Shown piece after piece: positions 7,997 to 30,539 of a stretch of 64,000 nucleotides of DNA; position 1 is the stretch's first letter, and every line of letters begins with the position of its first letter. The stretch is taken from positions 14,241-78,240 of the forward strand of contig CACXMR010000004.1 of the NCBI GenBank assembly GCA_902768825.1, read 5' to 3'. The stretch comes from an uncultured Ruminococcus sp. (GTDB taxonomy: Bacteria; Bacillota; Clostridia; Oscillospirales; Acutalibacteraceae). The notes beneath the pieces were generated by a model that did no database searches, was not told the DNA's origin, and was given only the letters and a program-made list of their open reading frames with translations. The translations under genes were made by a program, and so were the position numbers.

Positions 7997-8293
7997 TTAT
8001 TCCAAATTGAAAATATCTGCAAATCCTGTTAATTTGAAGATATCCATTATTTCCATCGAAGCACCTCTGACGATCATCTCACCACGGTCCTCCATAGTCT
8101 GATATGCAGCCAAAAGCACACGAAGCCCCGCACTTGAGATGTATTCGAGGCCACTGATATCAAATATCAGCTTTTCTACATCGTTAAGCTTATCCCCAAG
8201 CCTGCTCTCAAGTTCAGGCGCTGTACGAGTATCAAGTCTGCCCGTAATCATAATAGTAAGCTCGCTGCCATTTTTTATTTCTTTAATTTCCAT
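7997..8293 (-). CDS. STAS-domain anti-sigma-factor antagonist (SpoIIAA/RsbV-like), 98 aa
   Basis: MEIKEIKNGSELTIMITGRLD... with the phospho-serine motif DISGLEYISSAGLRVLL. AGGAGGA RBS upstream of the ATG at 8293. The 62-aa N-terminal extension in the track ORF has no support. Confidence 0.85.
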   Translation of the reverse strand: MEIKEIKNGSELTIMITGRLDTRTAPELESRLGDKLNDVEKLIFDISGLEYISSAGLRVLLAAYQTMEDRGEMIVRGASMEIMDIFKLTGFADIFNLE

Positions 8294-8436: not shown

Positions 8437-8462
8437 CTGTTTCTTGTACCAAGAAGGTGTTT

Positions 8463-9206: not shown

Positions 9207-9785
9207 TTATTCTGACCTGACAGCGATGAGCTTTTCCATATAACCATTCAATTCGGCAAGGCTCTTCATGATAAGATCCTTTGACGGAGTGAAATCATTC
9301 CTCACCCACTTACCGATAACAGCTACATAGCCGCTCGACCAGAATGCCGATAAATAATCCAGCTCATTATCATTGATGTCAACATGACATCTCTCAGTCA
9401 GTATCAGGCGAAACACACCCTCTATCATATTGGTGAACTTGAATCTGAGCTCACCGGTACTATGGGGGCTGAATATCATTTTAAAGATTTCAGGATTCTG
9501 CGTGATATAATCAAAAAGCTGGTCCCAGAAGTCTGCCGAAAACCCATCGCTGTATTTAAGTGTCAGCATTCCGATTTCGGTCAGCACTTCCCTTTCGATC
9601 TGCTCGTAAATATCATATACATCGTAGAAATACTTATAGAGTGTTGTTCGGCTGATCTCAGCCTTATCTGCTACCTCCTGAACGGTAATATCCTTTAGCG
9701 CCTTGTTTTCCATGAACTGTGCAAGAGCAAGCTTTATTGATTTTATAGTTTTAAGGGTTTTTCTGCTGAGCTTTTGTTCAGGCAT
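9207..9785 (-). CDS. TetR/AcrR-family transcriptional regulator
   Basis: N-terminal HTH ITVQEVADKAEISRTTLYKYF. The ATG at 9785 has a better RBS spacing (AAAGGTG) than the GTG at 9794. Confidence 0.85.
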   Translation of the reverse strand: MPEQKLSRKTLKTIKSIKLALAQFMENKALKDITVQEVADKAEISRTTLYKYFYDVYDIYEQIEREVLTEIGMLTLKYSDGFSADFWDQLFDYITQNPEIFKMIFSPHSTGELRFKFTNMIEGVFRLILTERCHVDINDNELDYLSAFWSSGYVAVIGKWVRNDFTPSKDLIMKSLAELNGYMEKLIAVRSE

Positions 9786-9848
9786 TTTTTTCACACCTTT
9801 ATATTAGCATAGTCCTATTACCGTACAACACAGATTTTTCAAGATGCT

Positions 9849-13184: not shown

Positions 13185-13394
13185 AAGACCACACTCCAAG
13201 AATTGTTTTATCAAACAAGCAGGTATTTAACAGGTAATTGGGAATATTTCATATAAAAAACCTTTTTACTTATCATGTTTTATAGTAAGATTATATCATT
13301 AATCGACAAAGCGTGTCAAGATTTTGCTCCAGAAGAACCTCTTGTTAAAACATGGATATCGGAAGCCTGAAAAAACTACTCTTCCATACATAAG

Positions 13395-13501: not shown

Positions 13502-16500
13502 TTATCTGTTCAGATTTTTTTCATCAAAGAAACCCAGCCCCATCAGTGCTTTGATAAAGCGACGGATATAAGCCATATCGGTATTGTTCCAATAGAAGCC
13601 CATACACGAGAGTATCCTTGAAGTATAATCAAATCTTGCGGCAACGGGTATAGTGTTTTTGCCGTTCATGTTTTTGTATGCCAGCATACTTGACAATATC
13701 GCTGCCTTGACAGGATCCTGCTCAGCTTTTTCCAGTGCAGCATCAAATTCGGGTTTATACACGAAATCAATTTTGATCCCCAGCTCCTTCATAGTACGGA
13801 TAATGTCAACAAGCGGAACCGAATGATTATTGATGGCATTGAAAAGGCAGCATTCACCGGGAGTCTGAGCAAGCAGCAGGAATGCCTTTGCGCTTTCGTC
13901 TATGGATCCCATGCGTACAGGATTATTTATCATGTCGTGGGGGAATGCCTTCAGCAGGGCAAAGCTCCTCAGGCGACCCATAAAGTTATTTGTGAGCCAG
14001 TTGATCTGGAACTCACCGTCGCTCTCACGGGGTGCAAGGGTGCCCACTCGGATGACCTTTGCGTCAAGTCCGTTTTCTACCACGTTCTCAAAGACCTCAC
14101 GCTCTGCTAACAGCTTTGAAGAAGTGTACTGGTTTTCAAGTATCTGCCCGAAATATAAAACGTGCTCGTCAAGGAATGGCATAGACTTGCCCGGCTGGGC
14201 TGCAACCGCACCTGAAACTGAGGTGGTTGAGAAGTGGATAAGTCTTGCGCCCTTTTCCAGACAATAGCGGATACAGTTTTTAGCACCGCCCACGTTGATA
14301 TCCTCGATATCTGTGCCGCTGGAGAAATGCTTAACGCTGGCAGCGCAGTTGAATACCGTATCAATCGGCATTGAAAGCAGGGAGCTGAAGCTCTCGTAAT
14401 CTGTTACGTCACCGTCGAATGCTTTGATACGATCCAGCATTCCCTCAAACCTGTCGTCAAAATAATAATACAGCATATTTCTGACACGGCTGAATGCGGT
14501 ATCATAACGCCCTTTACGCACCATGCAATAAACAGTGCCGGTATAGCTCTTCAGGTATTCCGCAAGAACGTGTATTCCCATAAATCCTGTGGCACCGGTC
14601 AGGAGAATATTTCCCAATGGTCGTTTTTCACCATTGACAAAAGAATCAACGCTGTTGGATCTCAGCATCTGATGTATCTTGGTGTAATCATAGCTGTCAA
14701 AGCGGGCAGCCGAGAGCGATACGTTGTCTCCTTCTCCCGTGAATCTGGAAGCAAGCTTTCGTGGTGTAGTGTATTTGAACACATCGCCGTAGGTCAGCTC
14801 GTAGCCCTGTTCATTCGCCTTTATCATTACGCTTGTGACAGCAAGACTGGTGCCGCCGATGGAGAAGAAGTCATCATTTGCACCCACCTTGTCAAGTCCG
14901 ACGATCTCGCCAAACAGCTTGCAGAAGAATTCCTCCGTATCGTTGGCAGGCGGTTCATATTCGCCGCTTTCTACAAGTTCAGGATCAGGCAGTGCCTTTA
15001 CATTGGTCTTGCCATTGGGTGTCACCGGTATATTATCTACCTGCATCATGGCGGCGGGCACCATATAGTGGGTCAGCTTCTGGGCAAGAGCTTCTCTGAG
15101 TTCTGCCAGATCAACCCGCATATCCGCAGTGAACCATGCACAGAGGTTTTCTCGTCCACCTATCCTGCGGACAGCTGCGGCTGCTCGCTTGATGTGAGGC
15201 TGCTGCTCCATCAGACCCTCGATCTCACCCAGTTCTATGCGAAGACCACGAAGCTTGATCTGGCCGTCCATTCTGCCGATAACCACCGCATTGCCCTCTG
15301 CATCCCATTTAGCATAGTCGCCTGAGCGATAGACACGCTGTCCGTTATACTCAATAAAGCGCTGCTTCGTCTGCTCCGGCAGATTACGGTAGCCCCTTGC
15401 AACACCCGGACCTCCGATAAGCAGCTCACCAATCACGCCACGGGGCAGCATATTAAGGTCGGAATCAACTATATATTCACATACATTGAGCAGCGGTCTG
15501 CCTACGGAAATATGATCCGCATTCTGAAGATATGCCATATTACAGGAAATAGTCGTTTCCGTGGGGCCGTAGGTATTGATAACATTTTCTATATGCAATT
15601 CCTTCAGGCGTTTGAGCAGGGTTTCGGAAAATGCCTCACCGCCCGCCAAGACCATTCTGCACTGCTTTAGGGCATCTGCAAAGGGTGCATACTCCATGTA
15701 TTGCTGATAGCGTGAAGGTGTGGCATTCATGGCGTCCACCCCGTTTTCGGTGATCAGCCTTGTAAGCTCCAGAGGATTGTTCATCTGATCCTCATTTGCA
15801 AAGACAACGGTTTTTCCGTTGCAGAGGATACCCAATGTATCCTTAAGTGACAGGTCGAAGGATACGCTGGAAACTGCCAGCATTTTACTGATCCCCTTGC
15901 TCAGAGTATCATACAATATATTTGCCGGGTGGGTAATGCAGTAGTTGCAAATGCCCTCATGCATCAGCATAACTCCCTTAGGCTTTCCTGTTGAACCTGA
16001 GGTGTATATCATATACGCAAGGTCCTGGCCTGTCAGCGGCACATCCGGATTCTCTGTATTGCTGCTGTCAAAAAGAGTATCTATCAGCAGCACCCGTTCA
16101 GCGGGATAATCCGAAGAATGTTCCTCTGTTGTGATAATAAATCTGGCTCCGGAATCCTCCGTGATATGACTAATTCTGTCAGCTGGATATTCAGGGTCAC
16201 AGGGCACAAACGCAGCACCTGCCTTCAGCACACCAAACACTGCTTCAAAGTAGTAGCTTCTGCGAGGCAGCAGCAGCACTATGCTGTCGCCGGGTCTGAC
16301 ACCCTTTTCCATAAGGCTGTGGGCAATACGGTTTGCATCTTTGTTCAGCTCAGAATAAGTAAGTGTCTTGTCGCAGGCGATCAGGGCTGTTTTATCGAAA
16401 GCATCTGCCGCTGTCTTTTCAAAGACTCTGTGGAGCAGCACTGTCTCGACCTCAAGCTGTGCCGAACGCCCCAGCTTCACCAGAGCCTGCTTTTCTTCGT

Positions 16501-19500
16501 CGGTAATCAGCGACAAAGCACATACAACAGTGTCACTTTTATCTATCATCCTGTCGGTCATGGTTTTGACAGAATCAGCAAGAGTCTGCATATACTGCTT
16601 TGAATAAAGAGCATCGTTATACAGCACCCTGACGGCATATTCTCCGCCTCTCTCCACGATCGAAAATACTATCCTGAACTTTGGCGCTTCAAAGCTTAAC
16701 CTCACCTGCTTATAAGCATTTCCGCCGATCGTGCCTCCTTCAGTAATGACACCAAGCTGGCATTCATACATTATTTCTGTCTTGTATCCGTATTTTGCGG
16801 CGATCTCAGCAAAGGGATAGATCTCATTTTTAATGCTTCCCCTCATGACGCTGTTTGAAGCCTTGACAAGCTCCAATACATTCATGCTCTTGTCAAATTC
16901 CATTGCAAGGGGCAGGGTATGTACAAACATTCCGAGAGTGTTTCTTGTCTTAATGCTTTCCCGCCCCGATGAAATAGTGGACAGATAGACATTCTTTGTT
17001 CCGGCATAGCGTGAAGCAGTATAGAACACTGCCGCAAGGAAAAATGCAGATGCCTGCACGTTATTCTGACGACAAAAAGCATCAACCGCCTGCTTTGACA
17101 CAGTGCAGGAAACCTCACCGATCACGCCGTTTTCTTCATTTCCTGATCTGTCGAAAGGAATCCCTGTAGGTGCCTCATAGCTTTGGAACAGCCTGTCAAA
17201 ATACTTTTCAGCTTCCGAATATTCATCCGTCTGCTTGAGTTCCTCCCCTTCCTGGGAATAATCAAAGTAGGTGTAGCTTTCCCCTGACAACTCCTTGCCT
17301 GAATAAGCCGCATCAATATCCCTGAGCAGTATGCCTCTCGACAAACCATCAAATATCAGGTGATGAACATCAAAGAACAGATAAGTCTTTCCACCGGAGT
17401 TGACAACTGACGATCTGAAAAGCGGACCCTTGTGAAGATCAAAGGGACGGATAAAGCTGTTTTTGAACTGCTCAAGCTCCTCAGAATCCATTGTAAGGAC
17501 ATCCACCTTTACAGGGGCATCATCGTTTCTGACCTGCACAAGCCTGCCGTCACACAGCTCGATATGGGTGTTGAGATAGCTGTGAGCGACAACGGCCGAT
17601 TTTACTGCATCCGCAAGTCTCTGGCCATCAAGCTGTTCAAATTGCAGACACATGGGCAGATTATACACTATGTCAGCCTCGTTCTTCATTGCATCGTAGT
17701 AAACGGCAATCTGTACATCAGATAGCGGAACCTTGTCTGACTTAGGCTTTTCTTCAGTGATATCCGCCTGCATCTCCGATTGTTGTGAAAATCCCTTTTG
17801 CATCCAGCTTTTAAAGATAATGTTTTCTATATCGATTATGCTTGCGCCGTCAAGGAGCATAGAGGCGGATACCTCGGCGTTAAACTTGTCAGCGAGAGTG
17901 GCAACGAGACCTATAGCGCTGATGCTTGTCAGTCCGTAATTAATCAGAGGCTCTGCAGGGTGAATATCAATATCCCCCAAAAGACGTTTTGCAACCCCTG
18001 CGATCTCTTCCTCAAAAAGGGTCAGCGGACGAGCCTGCCGCTCATTATCGTTGGTATTGGTTGTTTTGACAGGCTCCGGCAGTGCACGCTTGTTGACCTT
18101 CTGGTTCTGGTTCAGAGGAATACGGTCGATCTGCATTGTCACAGCGGGAACCATGTAAGCAGGCTTGTCTTTCCTGATAAACTCGCCCAGTGCGTCTACA
18201 TCTACAGGCTCATCTGCTACCACGTAAGCCGCAATAAACTTTCCGCCGGTCTTTTTGTCGAATGCCTGTACGGTGGCGTCCTTGATACCCGGGAACTTAC
18301 GAATAACACTCTCAACCTCAGACAGCTCAATACGGAAGCCGCGCACCTTGACCTGACCGTCGTTTCTGCCTATGAAATCAGCCGTGCCATCCGGCATGAT
18401 ACGCACTATATCACCTGTCCTGTATGCGTGGGTATAGCCCGGTTCATCTGAGAACGGATTGCGTATGAACACCTCGGCATTTTTCTCCGGGCGGTTAAGA
18501 TATCCTCTTGCTACCTGGTGACCTGCTACAATCAGCTCGCCGGGCATACCGAATGGCAGGCGGTTGCGGTTCTTATCCACGATATACTGCTTCATGTTGT
18601 AAAGCGGTTTACCTATGGGCACACGGGTATAAAGCCTGTCAACTGTAAACATGTGGGTAAAGAATGATTCCGTGGGACCGTAGCCGTTGTATAGCGTAAA
18701 ACCCCGAGGCGGCTCCACAGGGACTAATTTCTCACCGGCAACAATCAGATGATGGGGATAAGCAGCATCCGGGAACAGGTCGGCGTACTGTCTGCCTACC
18801 TGCGTTGTCATAAAGGTATGTGTAATGCCGTATTTGTGGAAATAGTCCTTTATTGCGATAAGATCAAGACGAATGCTCTCATCAATAATGTGGAGCTGAC
18901 CGCCGCAGAAAAGCACCGGGTACATATCCAGCATATGACAGTCAAAACCGTAGCTGGCGTAAGCGGATGAGCGGCTGTTTTCGTCTATATCATAATTTTT
19001 GATGTACCACTCGCAGAAACAGCGCAGATTATGATGTTCAAGCATGACACCCTTTGGAACGCCTGTTGATCCGGAGGTATAAAGCATGATGAACAGATCA
19101 CTGGGCTCCGGGTTTTCGGTTATCCTCTCGGCATCAGGAAGAGATGGTATTTCATCAGTGTAGAGCACCGGTCCCTTATAGTCAGGGAGCTTGTCCATCA
19201 GGTTCCTGTCAGCGATCAGATATTTGGCGTCTGCATCTTTTATCATAAATTCAAGACGTTCGGAAGGATAGCTGGGGTCAAGAGGCTGATATCCCGCACC
19301 TGACTTGAGAACACCGATAGAGGCTATGGGCATATATTCACAGCGGGGTATCATGACAGAAACCGCCTGATTCTTCCCCACGCCCTTGGCTTTTAGGAAT
19401 GCTGCGATATTCTCAGTAATGCGGTCTACATCTCTATAGGTATAAGTATGGTCAAGATAGACAACGGCTATATTATCAGGTGTTTTAGCTGCCTGACGGC

Positions 19501-22500
19501 GGAACGGAGTCACCATATCCGTGATCTCATAGTCGTGTTCAAAGTGGTTTACAGCTTCAAGACGGGCTTCGGTTTCATCATCCACAAGCTGAACCTTGTC
19601 AGTACTATCCTTGACAGCAAACTCTAACAGTGCCCGCTCATAGGTCAGGATCATCTCCCTGATAAAATTCTCTGTATAGAGATCGGAAGCGTAGGAGCAA
19701 TGGTAAGTCAGCCTGTTGCCATCAGGATAAATGAGGACTTCTATCTTTGCCTTGTCTTCCTCAAAGGTCAATGGAATGCTCTCAGCCTTTGCTCCGCAGA
19801 AATCAAACCTGCTGCCGTCTGTCAGGGTACTCTGATATACAAACAGCACATCTGCGGTCACGCCCAGATCATGTCTAATTTCCGCAAAGGAATATACGTC
19901 ATAGTGCAGGCTGTCGGCAAGCTGACTGCCAATGTCTTTGATGTAGCTCTCGGTGTCAGTATTATCAAGTCTGCAATGTACAGGATAAGTGCGCACAAAC
20001 ATGGAGATACTGTCGTTAAAACGAGGATCGTTCCTGCCGTTATTAACAACCGTAAAGACTGAATCCTCTCTGTCACAGTATTTTCCCAACAGCCAGCCAA
20101 AAACAGAGGTACAGAAAGCGTTTTCACTGACATGGTGCTTACCGCAATAGTCCCTGATTACGGCAGGGATGTTCTCTCTGCCGGTAAGGTTCAGCATCCT
20201 GCTTCCCTTCTGCGCCCCGGCGGAAACCACGTTGTTAATCGGAACGCAATCACTTTCTACGCCGTCCAAAAGCCTTGTGTAATATTCCTTAGAAGCATTA
20301 TAGTGTTCGCTCGCCCTGAGCTTTTCCTCTACAAGTGCCGCCTCATATCCGCTGTATTTTTCGGGGGTGAGTGTTTTTCCGTTATATGCAGCGGTGATAT
20401 CACGCAGGAAAATATTCTTGGAGCCGCCGTCAAATACGATGTGGTGAATGTCATAGAAGAAATAGTTTTCCTTATTGGTCCTGATAAGCTTGAAACGTAG
20501 CAGCCTTTCCTTTTGAATATCAAAGGGAACAACCAGATCATTCTGTATTTCATCGATAGAGTCACAGCGGATCTCTTCTATATCCTCTTCTTTAAATGTT
20601 TTGTCCCTTCTACGCTGACGGATTTCGCCGTTTTTGTTGATAAACATTTCAGTCATCATGTAGGGGTGCGCATTGACCGCTGCGGTAATAGCTGTTTTTA
20701 GCTTCGGCAATTCTATGGCGTCATCCAGCTTCAACAGACCCGGAACATTATAAACAGGAGTGTCAGGGTGCGACAGCGTCTCAAAGAAAATGCCCTCCTG
20801 GGTCTTGGTTATTGCGTATTCATCATAGATTTCAAAGTCCTCGCTGCCCTTATCCGCAAGAACCTTAATGAAGGCTTCAAGCTTTTTTATTGTGTCGTTT
20901 TCTCTCAGGTCACGGATCTGTACGTTTACACTGAAAGCATCGCTCAGCTTTATACAGAAGCCCACGCTGTTGAGGGAAGTCAGACCTGCCGAATAAAGCT
21001 CGGTGTCAATGCCGAAATCGCTGCTGCCAAGAACCTCTGCCGCAATATCGAATATACGCTGCTGCACTTCATTCTGCGGGGGAATTATGGTTTTATCAGC
21101 TGCAGCAGGCTCAGGAAGTCGTTTTGTATCAGTCTTGCCGTTAGCTGTCACCGGCATCTCATCCATCTGAAGGTAAGCTGTAGGAACCATGTAATGGGTA
21201 AGGTGCTTTTTCAGCTCGTCGCGGAGATCGTCGATTTCGATCTTCTTATCGGCAGTAAAGTAAGCGCACAGATTGTCCTGTCCGCCTATCTTGCGGATGA
21301 TAACCGACGCCTTTTTGATATGGGGCTGGGCTGCAATCAGCTCTTCGATTTCTGAAAGCTCTATTCTCAGTCCACGAAGCTTAACCTGACTGTCAAGTCT
21401 GCCTAAAATGAACACGTTTCCGTCCTTGTCGTATTTAGCATAGTCGCCGGTGCGATACATTCTCTGTCCGTTGTACTCCACAAAGGACTCTGCGGTTTTT
21501 TCGGGTAGGTTGCGGTAACCCTTGGCAACTCCTACGCCGCCTACATACAGTTCGCCGATCACGCCCCAGGCCGCAAGGTCGCCGTATCTGTCAACAATAT
21601 ATTCGCTGTAGTTAAGAAGCGGTCTTCCTATAGTAACATAATCCGCATCCGTCAGGTCAGCTGCATTGCATGAAACGGTTATCTCTGTGGGGCCATAGGT
21701 ATTGACGATCTTTATCTCATCGGAGCAGGCTTTGATAGCGTCCCTCAGTGACATGGGATAACCCTCACCGCCGGACATGACAAGCTTACACCTTGCAAGC
21801 TCTTTTCTGAAGGGCTCATATTCCATATATTGCTGCAATCTTGACGGTGTGGCATTCATGCAGTCAACACTGTATTTCTCCATCAGGTCGGCAAGCGCTC
21901 TCGGGTCGTTCATTTCCTCCTCGGAAGCGAAAACCAGCGTTTTGCCGTTGCAAAGGGCTGCCGTGTGCTCCTTGAAGGACATATCAAAGGATACTGTTGT
22001 CACGGAAAGATATGTCTCAACATGATTTTTGATATAATTCATGTGGATATTTGCAGGGTGCGGCATCAGATAGTTGCATATTCCGATGTGACTCAGCATA
22101 ACTCCCTTGGGCTTGCCCGTTGAGCCGGAGGTGTAGATCATGTAGGCAAGCTCATCGCCGGTCATTTCTATTTCGGGGGCTGAGGTATCGCTGCCCTCAA
22201 GAATATCCGATACGTTTATGGCGTTGTATGCTGCGTAGTCTGCAAGCTTTTCCTGGGTAGTTATTATGCACACAGCTCCGCTGTCCTCAATAATGGAGCG
22301 TATACGGTCAGCCGGATACTGCGGATCGCAGGGAATAAATGACGCACCGGCCTTGTTGACACCGAAGAGACAGCTGAAGAATGTGCTTTCTCTTGGGAGA
22401 AGAAGGACAACACTGTCACCCTTGCGAATGCCCTTATCAATCAGGTTGTTTGCAACGATGTCAGAACTCTTGCTGAGCTCATTATAGGTCATTGTTTTGT

Positions 22501-25500
22501 CCTTGGCTATCAGGGCGATTCTATCCGGATTTTCGTTTGCGCTTTGCTCAAAAAGCCTGTGCAGAAGCTTTATGGGAATATCGGCCTTTGCAGTGGATGA
22601 AAACTCATTAACAGTCTTTAGCTGCAGAGCAGGCAGTGCAAGGGCATCCCTGACTGTAGCAGACTGAGGTTCACAGAGTCTCTCAGCGGTACTAAGGAAT
22701 TGCTCGATAAAGCCTTCGATCACGGTATCTTCAAACAATTGGCTGGAATACTGAAGATAGCAGTCAATGCCCTGCTCCTTAACCTGCATGACCAGATTAA
22801 TGTCCTTGCCGGAGGTTTGCAAACGATATGATGATTTTATTGCAACTCCGTTTCCGCTCATATCATTCTGTATGGGAATATAGTTAATACCCACATCGGA
22901 CAGCAGACTGCGTGAAGCGTCCCTTTCTTTGGCAAACGCCGCCACCAGACGGTCAAAGGGGCAGGTATTCTCCTTGATATACTCAGAAACAGCTTCCTTT
23001 ACTTCACTGATGTAGTCGTCAGATCTTTTGGATCGAACCGGTCTGAGGCGCAATAGCGCAGTATTTACAAACATACCGATGGTATTGCTTGTCTTTGCGT
23101 CACGGGTATTAACAGGTACACTGACCACTATATCCTCTGACGCAGTATATTTTGCAGCCGTCATGGAATATGCCGATAGCAGCAGATCAAAGGGCGTCAC
23201 TGACTTTTGGCGGGCTGTCTGTTTTATGGCTTGCAGAAGGTCGTTTCCTATGACAAAGAAACGGTCGGTATCTGATTCGGGATGCACCTTGGGACGTGGA
23301 GCTTTGGTGGTAAGCTCTGTGACCGGAACACCGTCCGCAAAGAGTGCCTTGTATTTTTCAAAGCCCTTCTGATAGGAGGCTTCGTGATTTACCTGAGAAG
23401 CACCGCTCAGGTCAAAGCTGTCAAGGACAGGAGCATTGCCTGTAAGCCTTGCAAAAAGCTCTTTTCCAAACAGTATATCGCTGCCGCCGTCAAACATAAT
23501 GTGATGATAAAACAGGACAAGCAGGCATTGTTTTGTGTCCGTGTAGATAACAGCACTGGCAGGAATGCCAGCGGAAAGATCGTATGTCTTGTCCTGAGCT
23601 TCCGCCATAGAACGGGCTGCCTGAATATCGCTGATCTGACAAACGGTGATTTCGGGTATTTCGTCAACCAATACTCTAAGAAGCCTGCCGTCCTTTTCAC
23701 GATAGACCGAATGGAAGGCTTCGTGGCTGCGGAAAATATCTTCCACTGCATTTTTTATCTGCTCCGCTCCTGAGCCGTTGACCTCATAATAGCCTATCAG
23801 GTTATACATCCTCGATTCAGGATTCAGCTTCTGCTCAAGATACATACCTGTCTCAAAGGTGCTCAGGGGGTATTCATTCAGCTGGGCTTTCTCTGACGAT
23901 TCCTGTGTTACTGCCATTTCAAGCATTGCTGAGATCCTTTTGGGAGTTTTTCCGGAGAAGATGATCTCCGAAGAAAGTGACGCTATGCCGCATTCCGCCT
24001 GGAGCGTCATTGCCAGCAGTGAATCGCCGCCCAAAGAGAAGAAATTATCGTTAACTCCTACCTGACCGCATTTCAGTATTTTTTCAAAAGCGGAGCAAAG
24101 AACCCTTTCATACTCCGTTTCAGGCGCTGCATATTCCTCCTTGAAGGATGCAGCCATCGGCGGCTTTATCGCCTTGCGGTCGATCTTGCCGTTGGTGTTA
24201 AGCGGAAAAGCTTCCACCTCCACAAAGAATCGGGGGATCATATAATCCGGCAGCTTCCGGCGGAGTGATGCTTCGATGACTTCGGATGATATGGACATAT
24301 CGTTTTTTACTTTATAGTATGCGGCAAGATAGGTAAGTCCGTATTCGTTCTCAAACGCCTTGACAACGGCTGCTTCAACCTCCGGATGATCCGTAACCAT
24401 CCGGACTTCTATCTCTCCGGTCTCGACACGCTGACCGTTGATCTTCACCATCCAATCCTTGCGGTTGACATAGACGATATTCCCGTCCGGCAGCATCCTG
24501 CCTATATCGTTAGTGTGATAAAGTGTCAGACCGTCCGCAGGATCAGAGAAGGGATCAGCAGCAAATGCTTCCTTTGTTTGCTTTTCCAGCTTCCAATATC
24601 CCTTTGAAAAGCTTCCGGCAAGGCAAATCTCTCCCTCCTCGCCCATCGGGACCTGCTTGCCGCTGTCATCAAGGAGATATACGGATACTCCATCGGCAGG
24701 CCTTCCTATGGGTGTATTGTCATAGGCTTTATCAACATTGAAGGTGAGAGAACAGAGCGCCTCGGATGAACCGTATGTATTGATTATCCTGTATTCGTTG
24801 GAATAAAAGTCGGATAATCTCTCGCCCACCGTCTGAACGAACCGCAGGGATGAATTGTGGATATCCAGACGCTTGAGCATATTGGGATTGATATACAAAG
24901 CGGTAATTCTGTAATCTATTATGGCTTTCCTGACATAGGAAAGCTCCTTGCGCTCCTGATCGTTGAGTATCAGGAGATGCGCTCCCGAAAGAATGGTGTC
25001 ATACACCTCTGCAACGGACAAAGCAAAGCTAAGGCTCACAAGCCCGAGTGTTCTGTCGCTGTCTGTCATTCCGTTGATGCAGGTGTTCTTTTGCACTGCC
25101 TCAAATAAAGATCGGTGTGTATGCACAACACCCTTGGGATTCCCGGTGGAGCCTGAGGTGTAGATCAACAGAGAAATATCCTCGTCAGTAGTCTCAGCGT
25201 CCTCAGTTGCCGGCTCTGCACTCATGGCATCACGCATAAAGGCTTCATCTATCACTATCTGTGCCTGACAGTCATTTTTTATATAATCAATACGTTCCTG
25301 AGGATACTCCTGCAGAAGCGGCACATAACCGCAGCCGGCTCTTAGCACACCGATCTCTGCAGCTATATAATCAATACCCCGTGGCAGAATAACCGGAACA
25401 AGACTTCCTCTCTCCGTGCCCTTTGACCTCAGTAACGCAGCAATCCTTCCGCTGAGGGTCATCAGCTCTCCGCCTGTCAGACTGCGCCCGGTAAAGCTCT

Positions 25501-25567
25501 CTGTAAGCAATACTTTATCCCGGTACCGTTCAAATATGGTTTTAAACCTTTTTGTTAATCCGCTCAT
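13502..25567 (-). CDS. Four-module non-ribosomal peptide synthetase, A-T-C-A-T-C-A-T-C-A-T-R (terminal thioester reductase)
   Basis: Uninterrupted 4021-aa ORF. A-domain cores LIYTSGSTGNPKG, MIYTSGSTGKPKG, MLYTSGSTGVPKG, MIYTSGSTGKPKG. Carrier motifs GGDS, GLTS, GLTS, GGTS. C-domain motifs HHIMFDGGS, HHIVFDGGS, HHLIFDGLS. C-terminal ~369 aa is an SDR reductase (LLTGATGFMG, YTSSK; about nt 13505-14611). AAGGAG RBS. Confidence 0.95.
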   Translation of the reverse strand: MSGLTKRFKTIFERYRDKVLLTESFTGRSLTGGELMTLSGRIAALLRSKGTERGSLVPVILPRGIDYIAAEIGVLRAGCGYVPLLQEYPQERIDYIKNDCQAQIVIDEAFMRDAMSAEPATEDAETTDEDISLLIYTSGSTGNPKGVVHTHRSLFEAVQKNTCINGMTDSDRTLGLVSLSFALSVAEVYDTILSGAHLLILNDQERKELSYVRKAIIDYRITALYINPNMLKRLDIHNSSLRFVQTVGERLSDFYSNEYRIINTYGSSEALCSLTFNVDKAYDNTPIGRPADGVSVYLLDDSGKQVPMGEEGEICLAGSFSKGYWKLEKQTKEAFAADPFSDPADGLTLYHTNDIGRMLPDGNIVYVNRKDWMVKINGQRVETGEIEVRMVTDHPEVEAAVVKAFENEYGLTYLAAYYKVKNDMSISSEVIEASLRRKLPDYMIPRFFVEVEAFPLNTNGKIDRKAIKPPMAASFKEEYAAPETEYERVLCSAFEKILKCGQVGVNDNFFSLGGDSLLAMTLQAECGIASLSSEIIFSGKTPKRISAMLEMAVTQESSEKAQLNEYPLSTFETGMYLEQKLNPESRMYNLIGYYEVNGSGAEQIKNAVEDIFRSHEAFHSVYREKDGRLLRVLVDEIPEITVCQISDIQAARSMAEAQDKTYDLSAGIPASAVIYTDTKQCLLVLFYHHIMFDGGSDILFGKELFARLTGNAPVLDSFDLSGASQVNHEASYQKGFEKYKALFADGVPVTELTTKAPRPKVHPESDTDRFFVIGNDLLQAIKQTARQKSVTPFDLLLSAYSMTAAKYTASEDIVVSVPVNTRDAKTSNTIGMFVNTALLRLRPVRSKRSDDYISEVKEAVSEYIKENTCPFDRLVAAFAKERDASRSLLSDVGINYIPIQNDMSGNGVAIKSSYRLQTSGKDINLVMQVKEQGIDCYLQYSSQLFEDTVIEGFIEQFLSTAERLCEPQSATVRDALALPALQLKTVNEFSSTAKADIPIKLLHRLFEQSANENPDRIALIAKDKTMTYNELSKSSDIVANNLIDKGIRKGDSVVLLLPRESTFFSCLFGVNKAGASFIPCDPQYPADRIRSIIEDSGAVCIITTQEKLADYAAYNAINVSDILEGSDTSAPEIEMTGDELAYMIYTSGSTGKPKGVMLSHIGICNYLMPHPANIHMNYIKNHVETYLSVTTVSFDMSFKEHTAALCNGKTLVFASEEEMNDPRALADLMEKYSVDCMNATPSRLQQYMEYEPFRKELARCKLVMSGGEGYPMSLRDAIKACSDEIKIVNTYGPTEITVSCNAADLTDADYVTIGRPLLNYSEYIVDRYGDLAAWGVIGELYVGGVGVAKGYRNLPEKTAESFVEYNGQRMYRTGDYAKYDKDGNVFILGRLDSQVKLRGLRIELSEIEELIAAQPHIKKASVIIRKIGGQDNLCAYFTADKKIEIDDLRDELKKHLTHYMVPTAYLQMDEMPVTANGKTDTKRLPEPAAADKTIIPPQNEVQQRIFDIAAEVLGSSDFGIDTELYSAGLTSLNSVGFCIKLSDAFSVNVQIRDLRENDTIKKLEAFIKVLADKGSEDFEIYDEYAITKTQEGIFFETLSHPDTPVYNVPGLLKLDDAIELPKLKTAITAAVNAHPYMMTEMFINKNGEIRQRRRDKTFKEEDIEEIRCDSIDEIQNDLVVPFDIQKERLLRFKLIRTNKENYFFYDIHHIVFDGGSKNIFLRDITAAYNGKTLTPEKYSGYEAALVEEKLRASEHYNASKEYYTRLLDGVESDCVPINNVVSAGAQKGSRMLNLTGRENIPAVIRDYCGKHHVSENAFCTSVFGWLLGKYCDREDSVFTVVNNGRNDPRFNDSISMFVRTYPVHCRLDNTDTESYIKDIGSQLADSLHYDVYSFAEIRHDLGVTADVLFVYQSTLTDGSRFDFCGAKAESIPLTFEEDKAKIEVLIYPDGNRLTYHCSYASDLYTENFIREMILTYERALLEFAVKDSTDKVQLVDDETEARLEAVNHFEHDYEITDMVTPFRRQAAKTPDNIAVVYLDHTYTYRDVDRITENIAAFLKAKGVGKNQAVSVMIPRCEYMPIASIGVLKSGAGYQPLDPSYPSERLEFMIKDADAKYLIADRNLMDKLPDYKGPVLYTDEIPSLPDAERITENPEPSDLFIMLYTSGSTGVPKGVMLEHHNLRCFCEWYIKNYDIDENSRSSAYASYGFDCHMLDMYPVLFCGGQLHIIDESIRLDLIAIKDYFHKYGITHTFMTTQVGRQYADLFPDAAYPHHLIVAGEKLVPVEPPRGFTLYNGYGPTESFFTHMFTVDRLYTRVPIGKPLYNMKQYIVDKNRNRLPFGMPGELIVAGHQVARGYLNRPEKNAEVFIRNPFSDEPGYTHAYRTGDIVRIMPDGTADFIGRNDGQVKVRGFRIELSEVESVIRKFPGIKDATVQAFDKKTGGKFIAAYVVADEPVDVDALGEFIRKDKPAYMVPAVTMQIDRIPLNQNQKVNKRALPEPVKTTNTNDNERQARPLTLFEEEIAGVAKRLLGDIDIHPAEPLINYGLTSISAIGLVATLADKFNAEVSASMLLDGASIIDIENIIFKSWMQKGFSQQSEMQADITEEKPKSDKVPLSDVQIAVYYDAMKNEADIVYNLPMCLQFEQLDGQRLADAVKSAVVAHSYLNTHIELCDGRLVQVRNDDAPVKVDVLTMDSEELEQFKNSFIRPFDLHKGPLFRSSVVNSGGKTYLFFDVHHLIFDGLSRGILLRDIDAAYSGKELSGESYTYFDYSQEGEELKQTDEYSEAEKYFDRLFQSYEAPTGIPFDRSGNEENGVIGEVSCTVSKQAVDAFCRQNNVQASAFFLAAVFYTASRYAGTKNVYLSTISSGRESIKTRNTLGMFVHTLPLAMEFDKSMNVLELVKASNSVMRGSIKNEIYPFAEIAAKYGYKTEIMYECQLGVITEGGTIGGNAYKQVRLSFEAPKFRIVFSIVERGGEYAVRVLYNDALYSKQYMQTLADSVKTMTDRMIDKSDTVVCALSLITDEEKQALVKLGRSAQLEVETVLLHRVFEKTAADAFDKTALIACDKTLTYSELNKDANRIAHSLMEKGVRPGDSIVLLLPRRSYYFEAVFGVLKAGAAFVPCDPEYPADRISHITEDSGARFIITTEEHSSDYPAERVLLIDTLFDSSNTENPDVPLTGQDLAYMIYTSGSTGKPKGVMLMHEGICNYCITHPANILYDTLSKGISKMLAVSSVSFDLSLKDTLGILCNGKTVVFANEDQMNNPLELTRLITENGVDAMNATPSRYQQYMEYAPFADALKQCRMVLAGGEAFSETLLKRLKELHIENVINTYGPTETTISCNMAYLQNADHISVGRPLLNVCEYIVDSDLNMLPRGVIGELLIGGPGVARGYRNLPEQTKQRFIEYNGQRVYRSGDYAKWDAEGNAVVIGRMDGQIKLRGLRIELGEIEGLMEQQPHIKRAAAAVRRIGGRENLCAWFTADMRVDLAELREALAQKLTHYMVPAAMMQVDNIPVTPNGKTNVKALPDPELVESGEYEPPANDTEEFFCKLFGEIVGLDKVGANDDFFSIGGTSLAVTSVMIKANEQGYELTYGDVFKYTTPRKLASRFTGEGDNVSLSAARFDSYDYTKIHQMLRSNSVDSFVNGEKRPLGNILLTGATGFMGIHVLAEYLKSYTGTVYCMVRKGRYDTAFSRVRNMLYYYFDDRFEGMLDRIKAFDGDVTDYESFSSLLSMPIDTVFNCAASVKHFSSGTDIEDINVGGAKNCIRYCLEKGARLIHFSTTSVSGAVAAQPGKSMPFLDEHVLYFGQILENQYTSSKLLAEREVFENVVENGLDAKVIRVGTLAPRESDGEFQINWLTNNFMGRLRSFALLKAFPHDMINNPVRMGSIDESAKAFLLLAQTPGECCLFNAINNHSVPLVDIIRTMKELGIKIDFVYKPEFDAALEKAEQDPVKAAILSSMLAYKNMNGKNTIPVAARFDYTSRILSCMGFYWNNTDMAYIRRFIKALMGLGFFDEKNLNR

Positions 25568-25789
25568 AACATTTCTCCTTTCATATCGTACAAATGGGAC
25601 TGTCAGTTTCTTATACTAATACGAAAAAACTCATAATTCTAATTAATCATACCAGAAATTTTAATAATTGTCTATTATTTTTTGGCAATTTCTTAACTAA
25701 ACAGTGGACAACGACTGTTTTTTTTGATATCATCTTATCAAGGCTTTCACCCTGAGATCGGAATATTCTTTACAGAAAAGGTGGACAAC

Positions 25790-27532
25790 ATGGAGCGAAG
25801 CGGAAGACTGATCAATCATAAATATAACGAATATTTCTTTACAACGCTGGCAATGAGCGGATGTGCTTCCATTGCCTCGATCGTGGACAGGATCATGGTC
25901 GGGCACCTTTTGACTGCCAATGACCTGAATGCTACCAACCTTATAGGTCCGCTGATCTACATACTTAATATGATTTTCGGATTATTCATCTATGGCGGAA
26001 ATACGCTGGCTGTGACCTATAAGGGAAAACGAGATCAAAAAACAGCTAACAAATGCTTCACAATTTCAATTATTGTCGGATCCGGCTTTATGGCCGTTTT
26101 TGCGATAGTAGGCCTGATTTTGCAGGCTCCTCTTTCCTATTGGCTCTGCTCAGGTAAGGAGGAATTATTAAAACCTGTTTCAGATTACCTTATCCCTGTA
26201 TTGTTCCTGGGAATCCCTATGATATTGCTTAACGGCACGTCTGCTTTCGTCAGAGTAGACGGTCTGCGAAAGCTTGCCATTGCAATGCCAATTGTTTCCA
26301 ACGCTATAAACCTACTGCTGGATTACGTTTTTATGGGGGTATTAAAGCTTGGCATTGCCGGAGCCGGCTGGGCAACAAACATCGGTTTTACTGCGGCACT
26401 GGTTCTGCTGATACCCTATTTCCGCTCACAAAAGCGCACTGTGTTCTTTACTAAGGTCGGGTTAAAGGATATCCGTCTGATGTTCAACGCCTTTCATCTG
26501 GGGCTTGCAACGGCAATGATGTATCTTTGTATGTTCATCAAAACAAAATTCCTCAATACGATAGTTCTTGGTGTGCTGGGTGCAGTAGGCGGTCAGATCC
26601 TTGTGGTGTGCGCATCTGTAACCAGTGTAGCAAATATCTTCTTTACGGGAACTGCTCAGACAATGCTGCCTATCAACGGCGCACTGTACGGTGCAAAGGA
26701 TTATAAAGGCATCCGTCAGCTTTTCAAACGTGCGATGATCGTGATGGAGATCATCTGTGTTGCCATAATGGTTGTGTTTATGCTGTTTCCCATTCAGACC
26801 GGTGCGGTGTTTAATGTCACAAGTCCCGAAGCTCAGGAGCTTTTGCCCGGAGCAATTTTCCTGTTCTCACTTTGTGTTCCTCCCACGGGTATGCTGTTCA
26901 TCCTCCGCTCTCATTATCAGTCAACCGGTCACCGTAACGCAGCAACGGTGCTGACCATTCTGGAAGGAACGGTTTTCTTTATTCCCGTGCTCTGGATACT
27001 GTCTCTGATTGATCCCAATCTTGTCTGGCTGTGCCACGTTATCTCTATCCTATTGGCAATTGTATCCGTTTTGCTTGTAATGGGAATAATCGCAAAACGA
27101 AAAGGAAGGTCTGCTTTTTTGCTGCTGCCTAAGCAGGAGGACGGAGATATTATTGATTTCAGCATCGAAAACAACGTGGACTCGGCTGTAGAAGCGTCTC
27201 ACAAGGTAGTCGATTACTGCAAGGAAAGAGGCGTTGAGGCTGATGTTGCAAACAAAATCGGTGTTTCTGTTGAGGAGCTGTGCGTAAATACAGCACAGTA
27301 CGCCGCAAGCTCTAAATCTGATATGGTGGATATTTTCGTGAATATCACGCCCGAAGCGGTTATTCTTAAGGTGCGGGATAACGGAAAGATATTCAATCCC
27401 ACGGAGTATATTAATAATTCCGGCGAGATGATAACCGGACTAAAACTGATAAGAAGCATTAGCTCAAAAGTAGAATATAACCGTGTTATCGGCTTTAACA
27501 CCACAATCGTCACGATTAACAGAAGGAAATAA
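25790..27532 (+). CDS. MATE-family efflux transporter fused to a C-terminal SpoIIAB/RsbW-like HATPase (anti-sigma-factor kinase-like) domain
   Basis: About 450 aa of MATE-like polytopic region, then ~130 aa (nt ~27143-27529) with N-box-like VSVEELCVNTAQYA, G1-like LKVRDNGKIF and G2-like EMITGLKLI. AAGGTGG RBS upstream of the ATG at 25790. Confidence 0.75.
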   Translation: MERSGRLINHKYNEYFFTTLAMSGCASIASIVDRIMVGHLLTANDLNATNLIGPLIYILNMIFGLFIYGGNTLAVTYKGKRDQKTANKCFTISIIVGSGFMAVFAIVGLILQAPLSYWLCSGKEELLKPVSDYLIPVLFLGIPMILLNGTSAFVRVDGLRKLAIAMPIVSNAINLLLDYVFMGVLKLGIAGAGWATNIGFTAALVLLIPYFRSQKRTVFFTKVGLKDIRLMFNAFHLGLATAMMYLCMFIKTKFLNTIVLGVLGAVGGQILVVCASVTSVANIFFTGTAQTMLPINGALYGAKDYKGIRQLFKRAMIVMEIICVAIMVVFMLFPIQTGAVFNVTSPEAQELLPGAIFLFSLCVPPTGMLFILRSHYQSTGHRNAATVLTILEGTVFFIPVLWILSLIDPNLVWLCHVISILLAIVSVLLVMGIIAKRKGRSAFLLLPKQEDGDIIDFSIENNVDSAVEASHKVVDYCKERGVEADVANKIGVSVEELCVNTAQYAASSKSDMVDIFVNITPEAVILKVRDNGKIFNPTEYINNSGEMITGLKLIRSISSKVEYNRVIGFNTTIVTINRRK

Positions 27533-29257: not shown

Positions 29258-29258
29258 A

Positions 29259-29948: not shown

Positions 29949-29965
29949 TTCTTCATCCCCGATCC

Positions 29966-30535: not shown

Positions 30536-30539
30536 TCTC

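What the first reader, a model, noticed from the sequence alone, without database searches (positions are those of the whole stretch)
13502..25567. Single-gene four-module NRPS ending in a thioester reductase: predicted capped tripeptide aldehyde
One 12,066-nt ORF encodes A-T-C-A-T-C-A-T-C-A-T-R. The motifs are listed in the feature entry. The R domain has an intact GATGFMG NAD(P)H site and a YTSSK catalytic pair. There is no epimerase domain, thioesterase, MbtH or PPTase gene in the window. Terminal R domains release the chain as an aldehyde (or alcohol). As I recall it, published work on human-gut clostridial NRPS-R clusters (dipeptide aldehydes/pyrazinones acting on host proteases, and the predicted Ruminococcus 'ruminopeptin') makes a protease-inhibitor-type peptide aldehyde the most likely product class. 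The neighbouring genes are an exporter and signalling proteins rather than tailoring enzymes.
Basis: partly seen in the sequence, partly recalled or inferred. Interest (0 to 1): 0.65.

Follow-up and report, generated by a model that had tools for sequence, protein, structure and literature searches.

The report
Rumen four-module NRPS for capped peptide aldehyde
This is an intact gene from a rumen bacterium for a four-module peptide assembly line that most likely makes an N-capped tripeptide aldehyde; such genes are very common in gut and rumen microbes, and no product of this one or its close relatives has been identified.

Summary
ORF 13502-25567 (-) encodes a 4021-aa NRPS with the order A-T-C-A-T-C-A-T-C-A-T-R, and all catalytic motifs are intact. 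The window holds no E, TE, MbtH or PPTase.

The 'cap' is supported. The starter A domain has Ala in place of Asp235, the residue that binds the alpha-amino group. All 80 relatives examined also lack Asp235.

Modules 2 and 4 carry Lys239 pockets (DMKNMGTVSK and DLKNLGTISK), which points to an acidic, Glu-like residue. Module 3 has a hydrophobic pocket.

The T-R end is most like the PCP-R of Methanobrevibacter ruminantium Mru_0351 (PDB 6VTJ), then the aldehyde-forming AusA R domain.

The gene belongs to a large gut and rumen family, A*-T-(C-A-T)n-R with n = 1-3. It is a recombinant of two lineages, it recurs in cattle, sheep and goat metagenomes, it is under purifying selection, and fragments appear in metatranscriptomes.

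The neighbouring 'exporter and signalling' genes are conserved cluster parts: a MATE transporter fused to an RsbW-like domain, a STAS protein and a PP2C phosphatase.

Verdict: a new member of a known kind. The product and its function are inferred, not shown.

The parts
13502..25567 (-). NRPS gene, 4021 aa, A*-T-C-A-T-C-A-T-C-A-T-R
   Evidence: ORF; Pfam domains; motifs; gene called at the same length in the public assembly
24128..25567 (-). Starter A domain (aa 1-480). Pocket ALAYQVTCSK, no Asp235. Core motifs A3, A5 (NTYGSSE), A7 (YHTND), A8 and A10 Lys are present.
   Evidence: Best PDB hits are NRPS A domains (LgrA, TycA). TIGR01733 scores 292.8, below its cut-off of 317.4.
23903..24115 (-). 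T1 carrier domain (FFSLGGDSL)
22583..23890 (-). C1 condensation domain (HHIMFDG at aa 688)
   Evidence: Best PDB hits are TycC6 and LgrA C domains.
21098..22570 (-). A2, pocket DMKNMGTVSK (Lys239)
20852..21070 (-). T2 carrier domain (YSAGLTSL)
19523..20830 (-). C2 condensation domain (HHIVFDG at aa 1708), subtype unresolved
   Evidence: Best PDB hit is bacitracin synthase 3 (9rde, 88 bits), against 60 bits for TycC/LgrA.
18068..19510 (-). A3, pocket DCLFIAGFTK (hydrophobic)
17798..18025 (-). T3 carrier domain (INYGLTSI)
16448..17755 (-). C3 condensation domain (HHLIFDG at aa 2735)
   Evidence: Best PDB hits are TycC6 and LgrA.
14978..16435 (-). A4, pocket DLKNLGTISK (Lys239)
14723..14935 (-). 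T4 carrier domain (FFSIGGTSL)
13505..14620 (-). Terminal thioester reductase domain (GATGFMG; TTSV ... YTSSK)
   Evidence: Pfam NAD_binding_4, E = 5.8e-29. The T4-R stretch (aa 3540-4021) hits 6vtj_A at E = 3.9e-90 and AusA 4f6l at 1.6e-48.
25790..27532 (+). MATE transporter with a C-terminal RsbW-like HATPase_c_2 domain, transcribed divergently from the NRPS. The ORF opens at 25724; the called start is ATG 25790.
   Evidence: Pfam MatE + HATPase_c_2. The same 580-aa product is in the protein collection. Adjacent to the NRPS in 49 of 80 related loci. Conserved N box and G1 box. Best PDB hit RsbW.
9849..13214 (-). Membrane sensor phosphatase: signal/TM segment, Reg_prop/Y_Y_Y ectodomain, TM segment at aa 828-846, PP2C (SpoIIE) domain at aa 866-1109
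   Evidence: A PP2C homologue lies near the NRPS in 39 of 80 loci.
7997..8293 (-). STAS anti-sigma-antagonist-type protein. The likely start is Met63 of ORF 7997-8479. It carries the conserved DISGLEYISSAGLR serine motif.
   Evidence: STAS homologues occur in 43 of 80 loci.
9207..9794 (-). TetR-family regulator between the phosphatase and STAS genes. Membership of the cluster is uncertain.
   Evidence: Found in only one related locus, L062. A terminator-like hairpin lies at 9189-9162.
25646..25674 (-). Promoter-like site TAGACA-17-TATGAT (with TG) upstream of the NRPS
   Evidence: This is a consensus match only.
13290..13319 (-). Perfect-consensus promoter-like site TTGACA-18-TATAAT between the NRPS stop and the phosphatase gene
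   Evidence: This is a consensus match only.

Best explanation
The gene encodes a functional, single-polypeptide, four-module NRPS.

Proposed assembly. Module 1 has an NRPS-type A domain whose amino-group-binding Asp235 is replaced by Ala. It adenylates a carboxylic acid without an alpha-amino group (identity unknown) and loads it on T1. C1 joins this acyl cap to the residue loaded by A2, whose Lys239 pocket suggests an acidic, Glu-like residue. C2 adds a hydrophobic residue from A3. C3 adds a second Lys239-pocket residue from A4. The terminal SDR-type R domain then cleaves the T4 thioester with NAD(P)H and releases cap-Xaa-Yaa-Zaa-H, an N-capped tripeptide aldehyde. Because the N terminus is blocked, the aldehyde cannot cyclise to a pyrazinone or imine, so it should persist as an electrophilic warhead. 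The likely activity is protease inhibition with an acidic P1 residue.

Proposed export and control. The product is probably exported by the co-conserved MATE transporter. The RsbW-like cytoplasmic domain of that transporter, the STAS protein and a membrane PP2C phosphatase with an extracytoplasmic beta-propeller sensor form a partner-switching module without a sigma factor. This module plausibly gates export or production.

What is shown: the architecture, the intact motifs, the missing Asp235, the family, the conserved neighbours, the mosaic origin, purifying selection, and presence in RNA libraries.

What is inferred: the substrate identities, aldehyde rather than alcohol, the protease target, and the regulatory logic.
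For: Architecture and motifs.

Starter domain: Asp235 is absent from A1 and from every starter A domain in 80 related loci. A1 is nonetheless an NRPS-type A domain.

Lys239 pockets: the code DMKNMGTVSK is nearly universal as the last module in the family. Lys239 is the hallmark of the Glu code DAKDLGVVDK (own knowledge: Stachelhaus 1999, Eppelmann 2002). Ruminococcus ruminopeptin is described as an N-acylated Leu-Glu aldehyde (PMC8518294).

R domain: the T4-R stretch hits 6VTJ at 3.9e-90, AusA-R (aldehyde-forming) at 1.6e-48 and MxaA (alcohol-forming) at 5e-11.

Related chemistry: AusA performs a 2-electron release, and an N-acyl tail stabilises gut dipeptide aldehydes (PMC8210680).

Selection: of 37 listed population SNPs, 29 are synonymous. 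Indels inside the ORF are 3 nt and 15 nt.

Presence: the gene recurs in more than 10 ruminant metagenome studies. Fragments at 95-100% identity appear in 4 metatranscriptome runs.

Neighbours: the MATE~HATPase_c_2 fusion lies within 500 bp of the NRPS in 49 of 80 loci, and in 34 of the 42 loci with flanks on both sides. STAS is found in 43 loci and PP2C in 39. The same cassette occurs in a cultured Ruminococcus genome (L053) and in L084. The same association was noted for M. ruminantium (PMC2812497).
Against: No product has been observed for this gene or its close relatives. The Mru_0351 product was still unknown in 2021.

None of the four pocket codes matches a published code (no literature hits), so every substrate call is by analogy.

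The R-domain sequence cannot distinguish 2-electron from 4-electron reduction.

C2 is atypical and its stereochemical subtype is unresolved.

There is no PPTase in the window, so activation depends on a gene elsewhere. One relative, L084, carries a PPTase in its cluster.

Metatranscriptome contigs can contain residual DNA.

The G2 box of the MATE-fused domain is reduced to G-L, so kinase activity is uncertain. The match to RsbW in the PDB is weak (E = 0.042).
Confidence: 0.6

Rival explanations
1. The assembly line is the same, but the R domain performs two reductions and releases an N-capped tripeptide alcohol, as in myxalamid, myxochelin or the peptaibols. An alcohol would not be a covalent protease inhibitor.
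For: NRPS R domains of both kinds share the same motifs. The authors of the 6VTJ structure state that the extent of reduction cannot be predicted (PMC8024701). The NCBIfam MxcG model aligns to the end of the protein.
Against: The R domain is far closer to aldehyde-forming AusA-R (169 bits) than to MxaA-R (46 bits). Characterised gut relatives give aldehydes (PMC8210680; PMC8518294).
Confidence: 0.2
2. Module 1 loads an amino acid after all, for example a beta-amino, N-substituted or otherwise unusual one. The product would then be a free-amine tetrapeptide aldehyde that cyclises to a macrocyclic imine.
For: A1 is an NRPS-type A domain by overall similarity. Some non-alpha-amino-acid A domains bind the amine through other residues (own knowledge).
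Against: Position 235 is Ala in the window and V, I, A, G or S in all 80 relatives. No Asp appears at neighbouring pocket positions. This pattern is typical of domains that activate keto, hydroxy or other carboxylic acids (own knowledge).
Confidence: 0.07
3. The chemistry is as proposed, but the molecule acts mainly as an interspecies or population signal, for example towards methanogens or other rumen bacteria, rather than as a protease inhibitor.
For: The cluster is wired to a sensory partner-switching module with an extracytoplasmic sensor. LuxS lies beside the cluster in the window and in L050, L054 and L084. The family crosses phyla and reaches rumen methanogens. A role in syntrophic interaction has been proposed (PMC2812497; PMC8241843).
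Against: No receptor or response is known. Peptide aldehydes with a blocked N terminus, such as leupeptin-type compounds and ruminopeptin, are classic protease inhibitors (own knowledge). LuxS adjacency may be simple synteny.
Confidence: 0.25
4. The gene is a decaying or silent relic that makes nothing.
For: There is no PPTase, MbtH or tailoring gene nearby.
Against: The 12-kb frame is intact with every catalytic motif. The synonymous-to-nonsynonymous SNP ratio is 29:8, and indels are in frame. The gene is conserved across cattle, sheep and goat samples. Fragments appear in RNA libraries.
Confidence: 0.03

Closest known systems
Mru_0351 NRPS of Methanobrevibacter ruminantium M1 (PCP-R crystal structure, PDB 6VTJ/6VTZ)
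   Same: It lives in the rumen, has four modules and a terminal R domain, and has a MatE gene directly downstream. Serine phosphatase and anti-sigma-antagonist genes accompany the M1 NRPS genes (PMC2812497). It is the best PDB match to the window's T4-R stretch (E = 3.9e-90, 306 bits).
   Different: The host is an archaeon. Only the PCP-R sequence could be compared here, so the starter module and pocket codes were not compared. Its product is also unknown.
Ruminopeptin (rup) pathway of Ruminococcus bromii (Schneider and Balskus 2018)
   Same: It is a gut Ruminococcus NRPS with a predicted N-acylated peptide aldehyde carrying a C-terminal Glu (PMC8518294; PMC12327764). The three-module relatives found here (A*, then a hydrophobic pocket, then DMKNMGTVSK, then R) fit that product type.
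   Different: The window enzyme has one more module, giving a tripeptide with a Lys239-pocket residue at two positions. Its starter pocket (ALAYQVTCSK) is seen in none of the 80 relatives. The rup sequence and paper were not available, so orthology is untested.
Gut clostridial dipeptide-aldehyde/pyrazinone NRPSs (Guo et al. 2017) and S. aureus AusA
   Same: They have a terminal R domain that performs a 2-electron release to a peptide aldehyde (PMC8210680). AusA-R is the second-best solved match.
   Different: Those enzymes start with an amino acid and have two modules, so the free amine cyclises to a pyrazinone. Here the starter lacks Asp235 and there are four modules. The NCBIfam AusA equivalog model scores 2422.5, below its cut-off of 2500, and does so only through repeated partial matches.
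Leupeptin-type N-acyl tripeptide aldehydes of actinomycetes (own knowledge)
   Same: The predicted chemotype is the same: a small acyl cap, three residues and a C-terminal aldehyde warhead.
   Different: The organisms and the enzymology are different. The residues are basic or hydrophobic rather than the acidic ones predicted here. No sequence comparison was made.
Partner-switching systems with outputs other than a sigma factor, such as RsbU/V/W-like modules and Vibrio SypE/SypA
   Same: They combine a PP2C phosphatase, a STAS protein with a conserved serine, and an RsbW-type HATPase_c_2 domain.
   Different: Here the RsbW-like domain is fused to the C terminus of a MATE transporter, and no sigma factor is in the cluster. 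I found no description of this fusion in the papers searched.

Membership tests
Modular NRPS with terminal thioester reductase | A domains with core motifs A3-A10, including the catalytic Lys517 | tested here: met
   Four AMP-binding domains. Motifs are present in all four. A1 has divergent but complete motifs.
Modular NRPS with terminal thioester reductase | A carrier domain with a phosphopantetheine serine after each A domain | tested here: met
   Four PP-binding hits, with GGDSL, GLTSL, GLTSI and GGTSL.
Modular NRPS with terminal thioester reductase | C domains with HHxxxDG between modules | tested here: met
   aa 688, 1708 and 2735.
Modular NRPS with terminal thioester reductase | C-terminal extended-SDR domain with a GxxGxxG motif and a Thr/Tyr/Lys triad | tested here: met
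   GATGFMG, TTSV and YTSSK. These align with the same motifs in 6VTJ.
Modular NRPS with terminal thioester reductase | NAD(P)H-dependent reductive release of the chain | not testable with these tools
   This needs an enzyme assay.
Gut/rumen A*-T-(C-A-T)n-R family with a MATE~RsbW-like neighbour (includes Mru_0351-type clusters) | Starter A domain without Asp235, followed by T and C | tested here: met
   Window code ALAYQVTCSK. All 80 relatives have V, I, A, G or S at position 235.
Gut/rumen A*-T-(C-A-T)n-R family with a MATE~RsbW-like neighbour (includes Mru_0351-type clusters) | Terminal T-R didomain of the Mru_0351 type | tested here: met
   6vtj_A at E = 3.9e-90. R-domain identity to relatives is 39-80%.
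Gut/rumen A*-T-(C-A-T)n-R family with a MATE~RsbW-like neighbour (includes Mru_0351-type clusters) | Adjacent MATE~HATPase_c_2 gene, with STAS and PP2C genes nearby | tested here: met
   Window genes at 25790-27532, 7997-8293 and 9849-13214. Conserved in 51, 43 and 39 of 80 loci respectively.
Pyrazinone-forming dipeptide aldehyde NRPS (AusA; Guo 2017 type) | Two amino-acid modules, with a free N-terminal amine that cyclises onto the aldehyde | tested here: not met
   There are four modules and the starter lacks Asp235. The AusA equivalog model scores below its cut-off.
Ruminopeptin (rup) pathway | N-acyl cap and a C-terminal Glu aldehyde | tested here: inconclusive
   The cap is supported (no Asp235). 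The last pocket, DLKNLGTISK, has Lys239, which is compatible with Glu, but no assay or reference code is available.
Ruminopeptin (rup) pathway | Dipeptide length and orthology to R. bromii rupA | tested here: not met
   Length is not met: the window enzyme has three amino-acid modules. Orthology could not be tested because no rup sequence or paper was available.
RsbU/V/W-type partner-switching module | PP2C phosphatase, STAS protein with a phosphorylatable Ser, and an RsbW-type kinase domain | tested here: met
   SpoIIE at E = 6.7e-49. STAS matches TIGR00377 at 63 bits, above its cut-off of 53, and has the YISSAGL motif. HATPase_c_2 at E = 1.3e-11, with a conserved N box and G1 box.
RsbU/V/W-type partner-switching module | A sigma factor as the output | tested here: not met
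   No sigma factor gene was found among the window ORFs scanned, or in the cassettes of L053 and L084.

The most novel reading that the evidence does not exclude
The MATE exporter with its fused RsbW-like domain is itself the output of a sigma-independent partner-switching circuit (STAS protein plus sensor PP2C phosphatase). That circuit gates, after translation, the release of a reactive peptide aldehyde in response to an extracellular cue. In this reading the cassette travels with NRPS-R genes across Firmicutes, Bacteroidota, Acholeplasmatales and rumen methanogens as a self-contained unit that makes, senses and exports.
Probability: 0.3. Interest if true: 0.65.

Novelty: new member of a known kind. 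Interest (0 to 1): 0.45.

Why it matters
NRPS clusters are the most numerous class of biosynthetic cluster in rumen genomes: 5,346 in 8,160 genomes (PMC8241843). The papers I could search report no rumen NRPS product, and the Mru_0351 product was still unknown in 2021. This window gives a complete, recurrent and selected example with a concrete structural prediction: a non-amino acyl cap, then an acidic, a hydrophobic and an acidic residue, ending in an aldehyde. That compound could be synthesised, or searched for by mass in rumen fluid.

The comparison also makes a family-wide rule visible. The starter never has Asp235, and the last module is nearly always DMKNMGTVSK. It further shows a conserved MATE~RsbW-like/STAS/PP2C cassette, which gives a directly testable hypothesis for how release of such compounds is controlled.

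If the products inhibit Glu-specific or other proteases, they could affect protein breakdown and microbial competition in ruminants.

Tried and rejected
- A full-length protein search against the 5.8-billion-protein collection timed out. A search with the starter module returned only unnamed or generically named fragments of at most about 980 aa, and no characterised relative.
- The two key papers, Guo 2017 in Cell and Schneider and Balskus 2018, are not held. Their content is therefore cited only through reviews or marked as memory.
- A literature search for the pocket codes found nothing. A search for dipeptide aldehyde, cathepsin and NRPS together also found nothing.
- The attempt to type the C domains against solved structures was only partly informative. 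C1 and C3 resemble the LCL references. C2 best matches a C-type domain of bacitracin synthase 3 whose subtype I could not establish. Three earlier calls failed on a frame error.
- There is no Rfam family (riboswitch or leader) and no tRNA in the window.
- I considered and rejected assembly chimerism as the cause of the mosaic. An independent 10.8-kb contig from a sheep metagenome spans the junction.
- I considered and rejected a FAAL-type or aryl-acid-ligase identity for A1. Its best matches are NRPS A domains.
- The organism could not be named. The source contig is a rumen metagenome scaffold. The nearest relatives are uncultured Ruminococcus, Acutalibacteraceae and Clostridiales rumen MAGs, whose best-matching segments reach 58-74% identity.
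Full report
**Observation**

The window contains one uninterrupted ORF at 13502..25567 on the minus strand, encoding 4021 aa. An AAAGGAG Shine-Dalgarno sequence lies 7 nt before the ATG. A promoter-like TAGACA-17-TATGAT site lies about 80 nt upstream.

Pfam finds four AMP-binding, three Condensation, four PP-binding and one NAD_binding_4 domain. Motif mapping gives the order A-T-C-A-T-C-A-T-C-A-T-R:
- TSGSTGxPKG at aa 137, 1146, 2164 and 3189.
- HHxxxDG at aa 688, 1708 and 2735.
- Carrier serines in GGDSL, GLTSL, GLTSI and GGTSL.
- GATGFMG at aa 3658 and YTSSK at aa 3814.

There is no dual E/C motif. Pfam scans of all other substantial ORFs of the window found no thioesterase, MbtH or PPTase, and a motif search found no MbtH.

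**The starter module**

A1 is an NRPS-type adenylation domain. Its best solved relatives are the A domains of LgrA, TycA and GrsA. It falls just below NCBI's amino-acid-adenylation model (292.8 bits against a cut-off of 317.4).

Its A4 motif reads FALS instead of FDxS, so the Asp235 that binds the substrate alpha-amino group is replaced by Ala. Its ten-residue pocket is ALAYQVTCSK. The other catalytic motifs, including the A10 lysine, are present.

By established knowledge of A domains, loss of Asp235 marks activation of acids without an alpha-amino group, such as keto, hydroxy, aryl or alkyl carboxylic acids. This is the sequence basis for calling the product 'capped'. Which acid is loaded cannot be said.

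**The other modules**

- A2 (DMKNMGTVSK) and A4 (DLKNLGTISK) are 56% identical to each other. Both carry Lys at position 239.
- A3 (DCLFIAGFTK) has a hydrophobic pocket.

None of these codes appears in the searchable literature. Lys239 is the signature of the classical Glu code DAKDLGVVDK, and a K239Q change converts Glu to Gln specificity (own knowledge). A Ruminococcus NRPS-R product, ruminopeptin, is described as an N-acylated Leu-Glu aldehyde (PMC8518294). I therefore rate an acidic, Glu-like residue at positions 1 and 3 of the tripeptide as the best guess, at about 45% confidence.

C1 and C3 resemble the LCL-type references TycC6 and LgrA. C2 is atypical and its subtype is open.

**The reductase**

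The T4-R stretch is most similar to the PCP-R didomain of Mru_0351 from Methanobrevibacter ruminantium (6VTJ, E = 3.9e-90). Next comes AusA-R, the aldehyde-forming domain of the aureusimine synthetase (1.6e-48). MxaA-R, which forms an alcohol, is much more distant (5e-11). The Rossmann motif and the Thr/Tyr/Lys triad align with those of 6VTJ.

The authors of that structure state that the extent of reduction cannot yet be predicted from sequence or structure. 'Aldehyde' is therefore an inference from the nearest characterised relatives.

**Family**

A scan of one genome per species returned 271 relatives.
- All follow A*-T-(C-A-T)n-R with n = 1, 2 or 3.
- They come from rumen and gut Ruminococcus, Acutalibacteraceae, Lachnospiraceae, Bacteroidales, Muribaculaceae, Alistipes, Fibrobacter, Synergistaceae and Acholeplasmatales.
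- Nine loci share the four-module form.
- Every starter A domain lacks Asp235.
- DMKNMGTVSK is almost universal as the last module.

The window's starter pocket is not found in any of the 80 relatives. The closest A1 domains are 68% identical and carry AWAYKAICAK.

**Mosaic origin**

Domain-by-domain identities show two parents.
- A1-C1-A2-C2-A3 is closest to the L002/L011 lineage (65-83% identity).
- C3-A4-R is closest to L001 (68%, 72% and 80%), and only 27-44% identical to L002/L011.
- The MATE gene follows the C-terminal half: 78% identity to L001, 30-44% to L002/L011.

The junction lies at the end of A3. Metagenome assemblies also branch there, at 18078-18118. An independent 10.8-kb contig from a sheep sample runs straight through the junction, so the mosaic is biological and not an assembly artefact.

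**Is it alive?**

- Source. The source contig is a 77.9-kb scaffold from a rumen metagenome.
- Recurrence. The NRPS sequence recurs, with 44-99% of its sampled words, in 20 runs from 13 studies. These are labelled bovine, sheep, goat or unspecified gut metagenomes.
- Selection. Of 37 listed population SNPs inside the ORF, 29 are synonymous. The two indels seen inside the ORF are 3 nt and 15 nt long, while single-base indels occur only in the flanking intergenic DNA.
- Transcription. Short contigs at 95-100% identity from four metatranscriptome runs (three studies) are scattered along the gene. This is consistent with transcription in situ, although residual DNA cannot be excluded.

**Neighbours**

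These are conserved members of the cluster.
- **MATE fusion.** The divergent gene at 25790-27532 encodes a MATE transporter with a C-terminal HATPase_c_2 domain.
- **Its kinase-like domain.** The N box (EExxxN) and G1 box (RDxGxxFNP) are invariant in an 8-sequence alignment and at least 90% conserved across 79 homologues. The G2 box is reduced to G-L. The best solved match is RsbW, and it is weak.
- **Phosphatase.** Downstream of the NRPS lies a 1121-aa membrane protein. It has a Reg_prop/Y_Y_Y ectodomain and a cytoplasmic PP2C domain, and its own perfect-consensus promoter-like site.
- **Other genes.** A TetR gene, a small secreted protein and a STAS protein with the conserved serine motif follow.
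- **Conservation.** By tblastn, the MATE~kinase fusion is present in 51 of 80 related loci. It lies within 500 bp of the NRPS in 49 of them. It is present in 34 of the 42 loci that have at least 2 kb on both sides. STAS is found in 43 loci and PP2C in 39, across phyla.
- **Examples elsewhere.** In the complete genome of Ruminococcus sp. JL13D9 the order is NRPS, MATE~kinase, PP2C~kinase, PGA_cap, STAS, MATE. In L084 an Sfp-type PPTase and a STAS gene precede the NRPS.
- **Family size.** An exhaustive search with the 150-aa kinase-like domain finds 929 cluster representatives at E <= 1e-3. Half of the best 150 have the size of the MATE fusion, with the domain at the C terminus.
- **Earlier report.** The genome paper on M. 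ruminantium noted in 2010 that its NRPS genes sit with MatE, serine phosphatase and anti-sigma-antagonist genes (PMC2812497). I found no description of the fusion of the kinase-like domain to the transporter.

No sigma factor is in the cassette. The simplest reading is a partner-switching circuit whose output is the transporter, or production itself. This is inference only.

**Comparison with what is known**

The gene belongs to the well-populated gut and rumen NRPS-R class. NRPS clusters are the commonest class of biosynthetic cluster in rumen genomes (PMC8241843).
- It is not an AusA or pyrazinone-type enzyme: the module number is wrong, the starter is blocked, and the AusA model scores below its cut-off.
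- It resembles ruminopeptin in its logic but has one more residue. Orthology to rup could not be tested because the sequence and the paper were unavailable.
- Its nearest documented counterpart is Mru_0351, which has four modules, an R domain and a MatE gene downstream. The product of Mru_0351 is also unknown.

**Verdict**

It is a new, mosaic member of a known and very common family, not a new kind of system. Its value is as a clean, selected and transcribed example with a specific product prediction, and as a view onto a conserved and little-described MATE~RsbW-like/STAS/PP2C cassette. Interest is 0.45.

Noticed in passing
window 54232-58668 (-): A 1478-aa ORF with no Pfam family. The N-terminal ~930 aa are an acidic Ala/Glu/Ser/Lys-rich low-complexity region. 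The C-terminal ~550 aa contain several hydrophobic segments. The DNA at 56-58 kb has a strong AT skew of -0.26.
   Followed up: partly
window 7344-7868 (+); L050 23391-23912; L054 9106-9627; L084 1469-1993: A LuxS gene lies next to the NRPS cassette in the window and in at least three related Ruminococcus-type loci (78-81% identity in L050 and L054). This could be synteny or a functional link to AI-2 signalling.
   Followed up: partly
window 18078-18118: Metagenome assemblies from four independent samples break or branch here, with raised depth and many loose ends. The site is the C-terminal end of A3. It coincides with the junction between the two parental lineages of the mosaic NRPS, so it may be a recombination hotspot shared among NRPS paralogues.
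   Followed up: partly
L001 1-23771: The closest four-module relative sits in tandem with a second NRPS-R gene. Each NRPS is followed by its own MATE~HATPase_c_2 gene, and a STAS gene lies between the two pairs.
   Followed up: partly
L084 2126-2728: An Sfp-type PPTase (AASDHPPT_N + ACPS) lies inside a related two-module cluster, whereas the window has none. In the window organism the activating enzyme must be encoded elsewhere.
   Followed up: no
window 28760-31681 (-): A five-gene queuosine-precursor operon (PTPS/queD, radical SAM queE, GTP cyclohydrolase I, queC, queF) lies near the MATE gene, about 1.2 kb beyond its end. No preQ1 riboswitch or other Rfam family was detected.
   Followed up: no
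window 38262-43494 (-): A block of five genes: a Cthe_2159 carbohydrate-binding protein, DUF4956, a VTC-domain protein, a histidine kinase and a response regulator. It may be a polyphosphate-related module under two-component control.
   Followed up: no
proteins P0074 and P0084 (Bacteroidales): These are stand-alone A-T-TE proteins of about 795 aa. Their A domain is about 39% identical to the window's Asp235-less starter domain. The same kind of starter unit may therefore feed other pathways.
   Followed up: no
L053 17726-19528; L084 10748-12739; L085 2789-5605: In relatives the PP2C phosphatase is itself fused to a second HATPase_c_2 domain, and its N-terminal sensor differs (for example 5TM-5TMR_LYT). 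The window version instead has a Reg_prop/Y_Y_Y ectodomain and no kinase domain. The input domains of the cassette are variable.
   Followed up: partly
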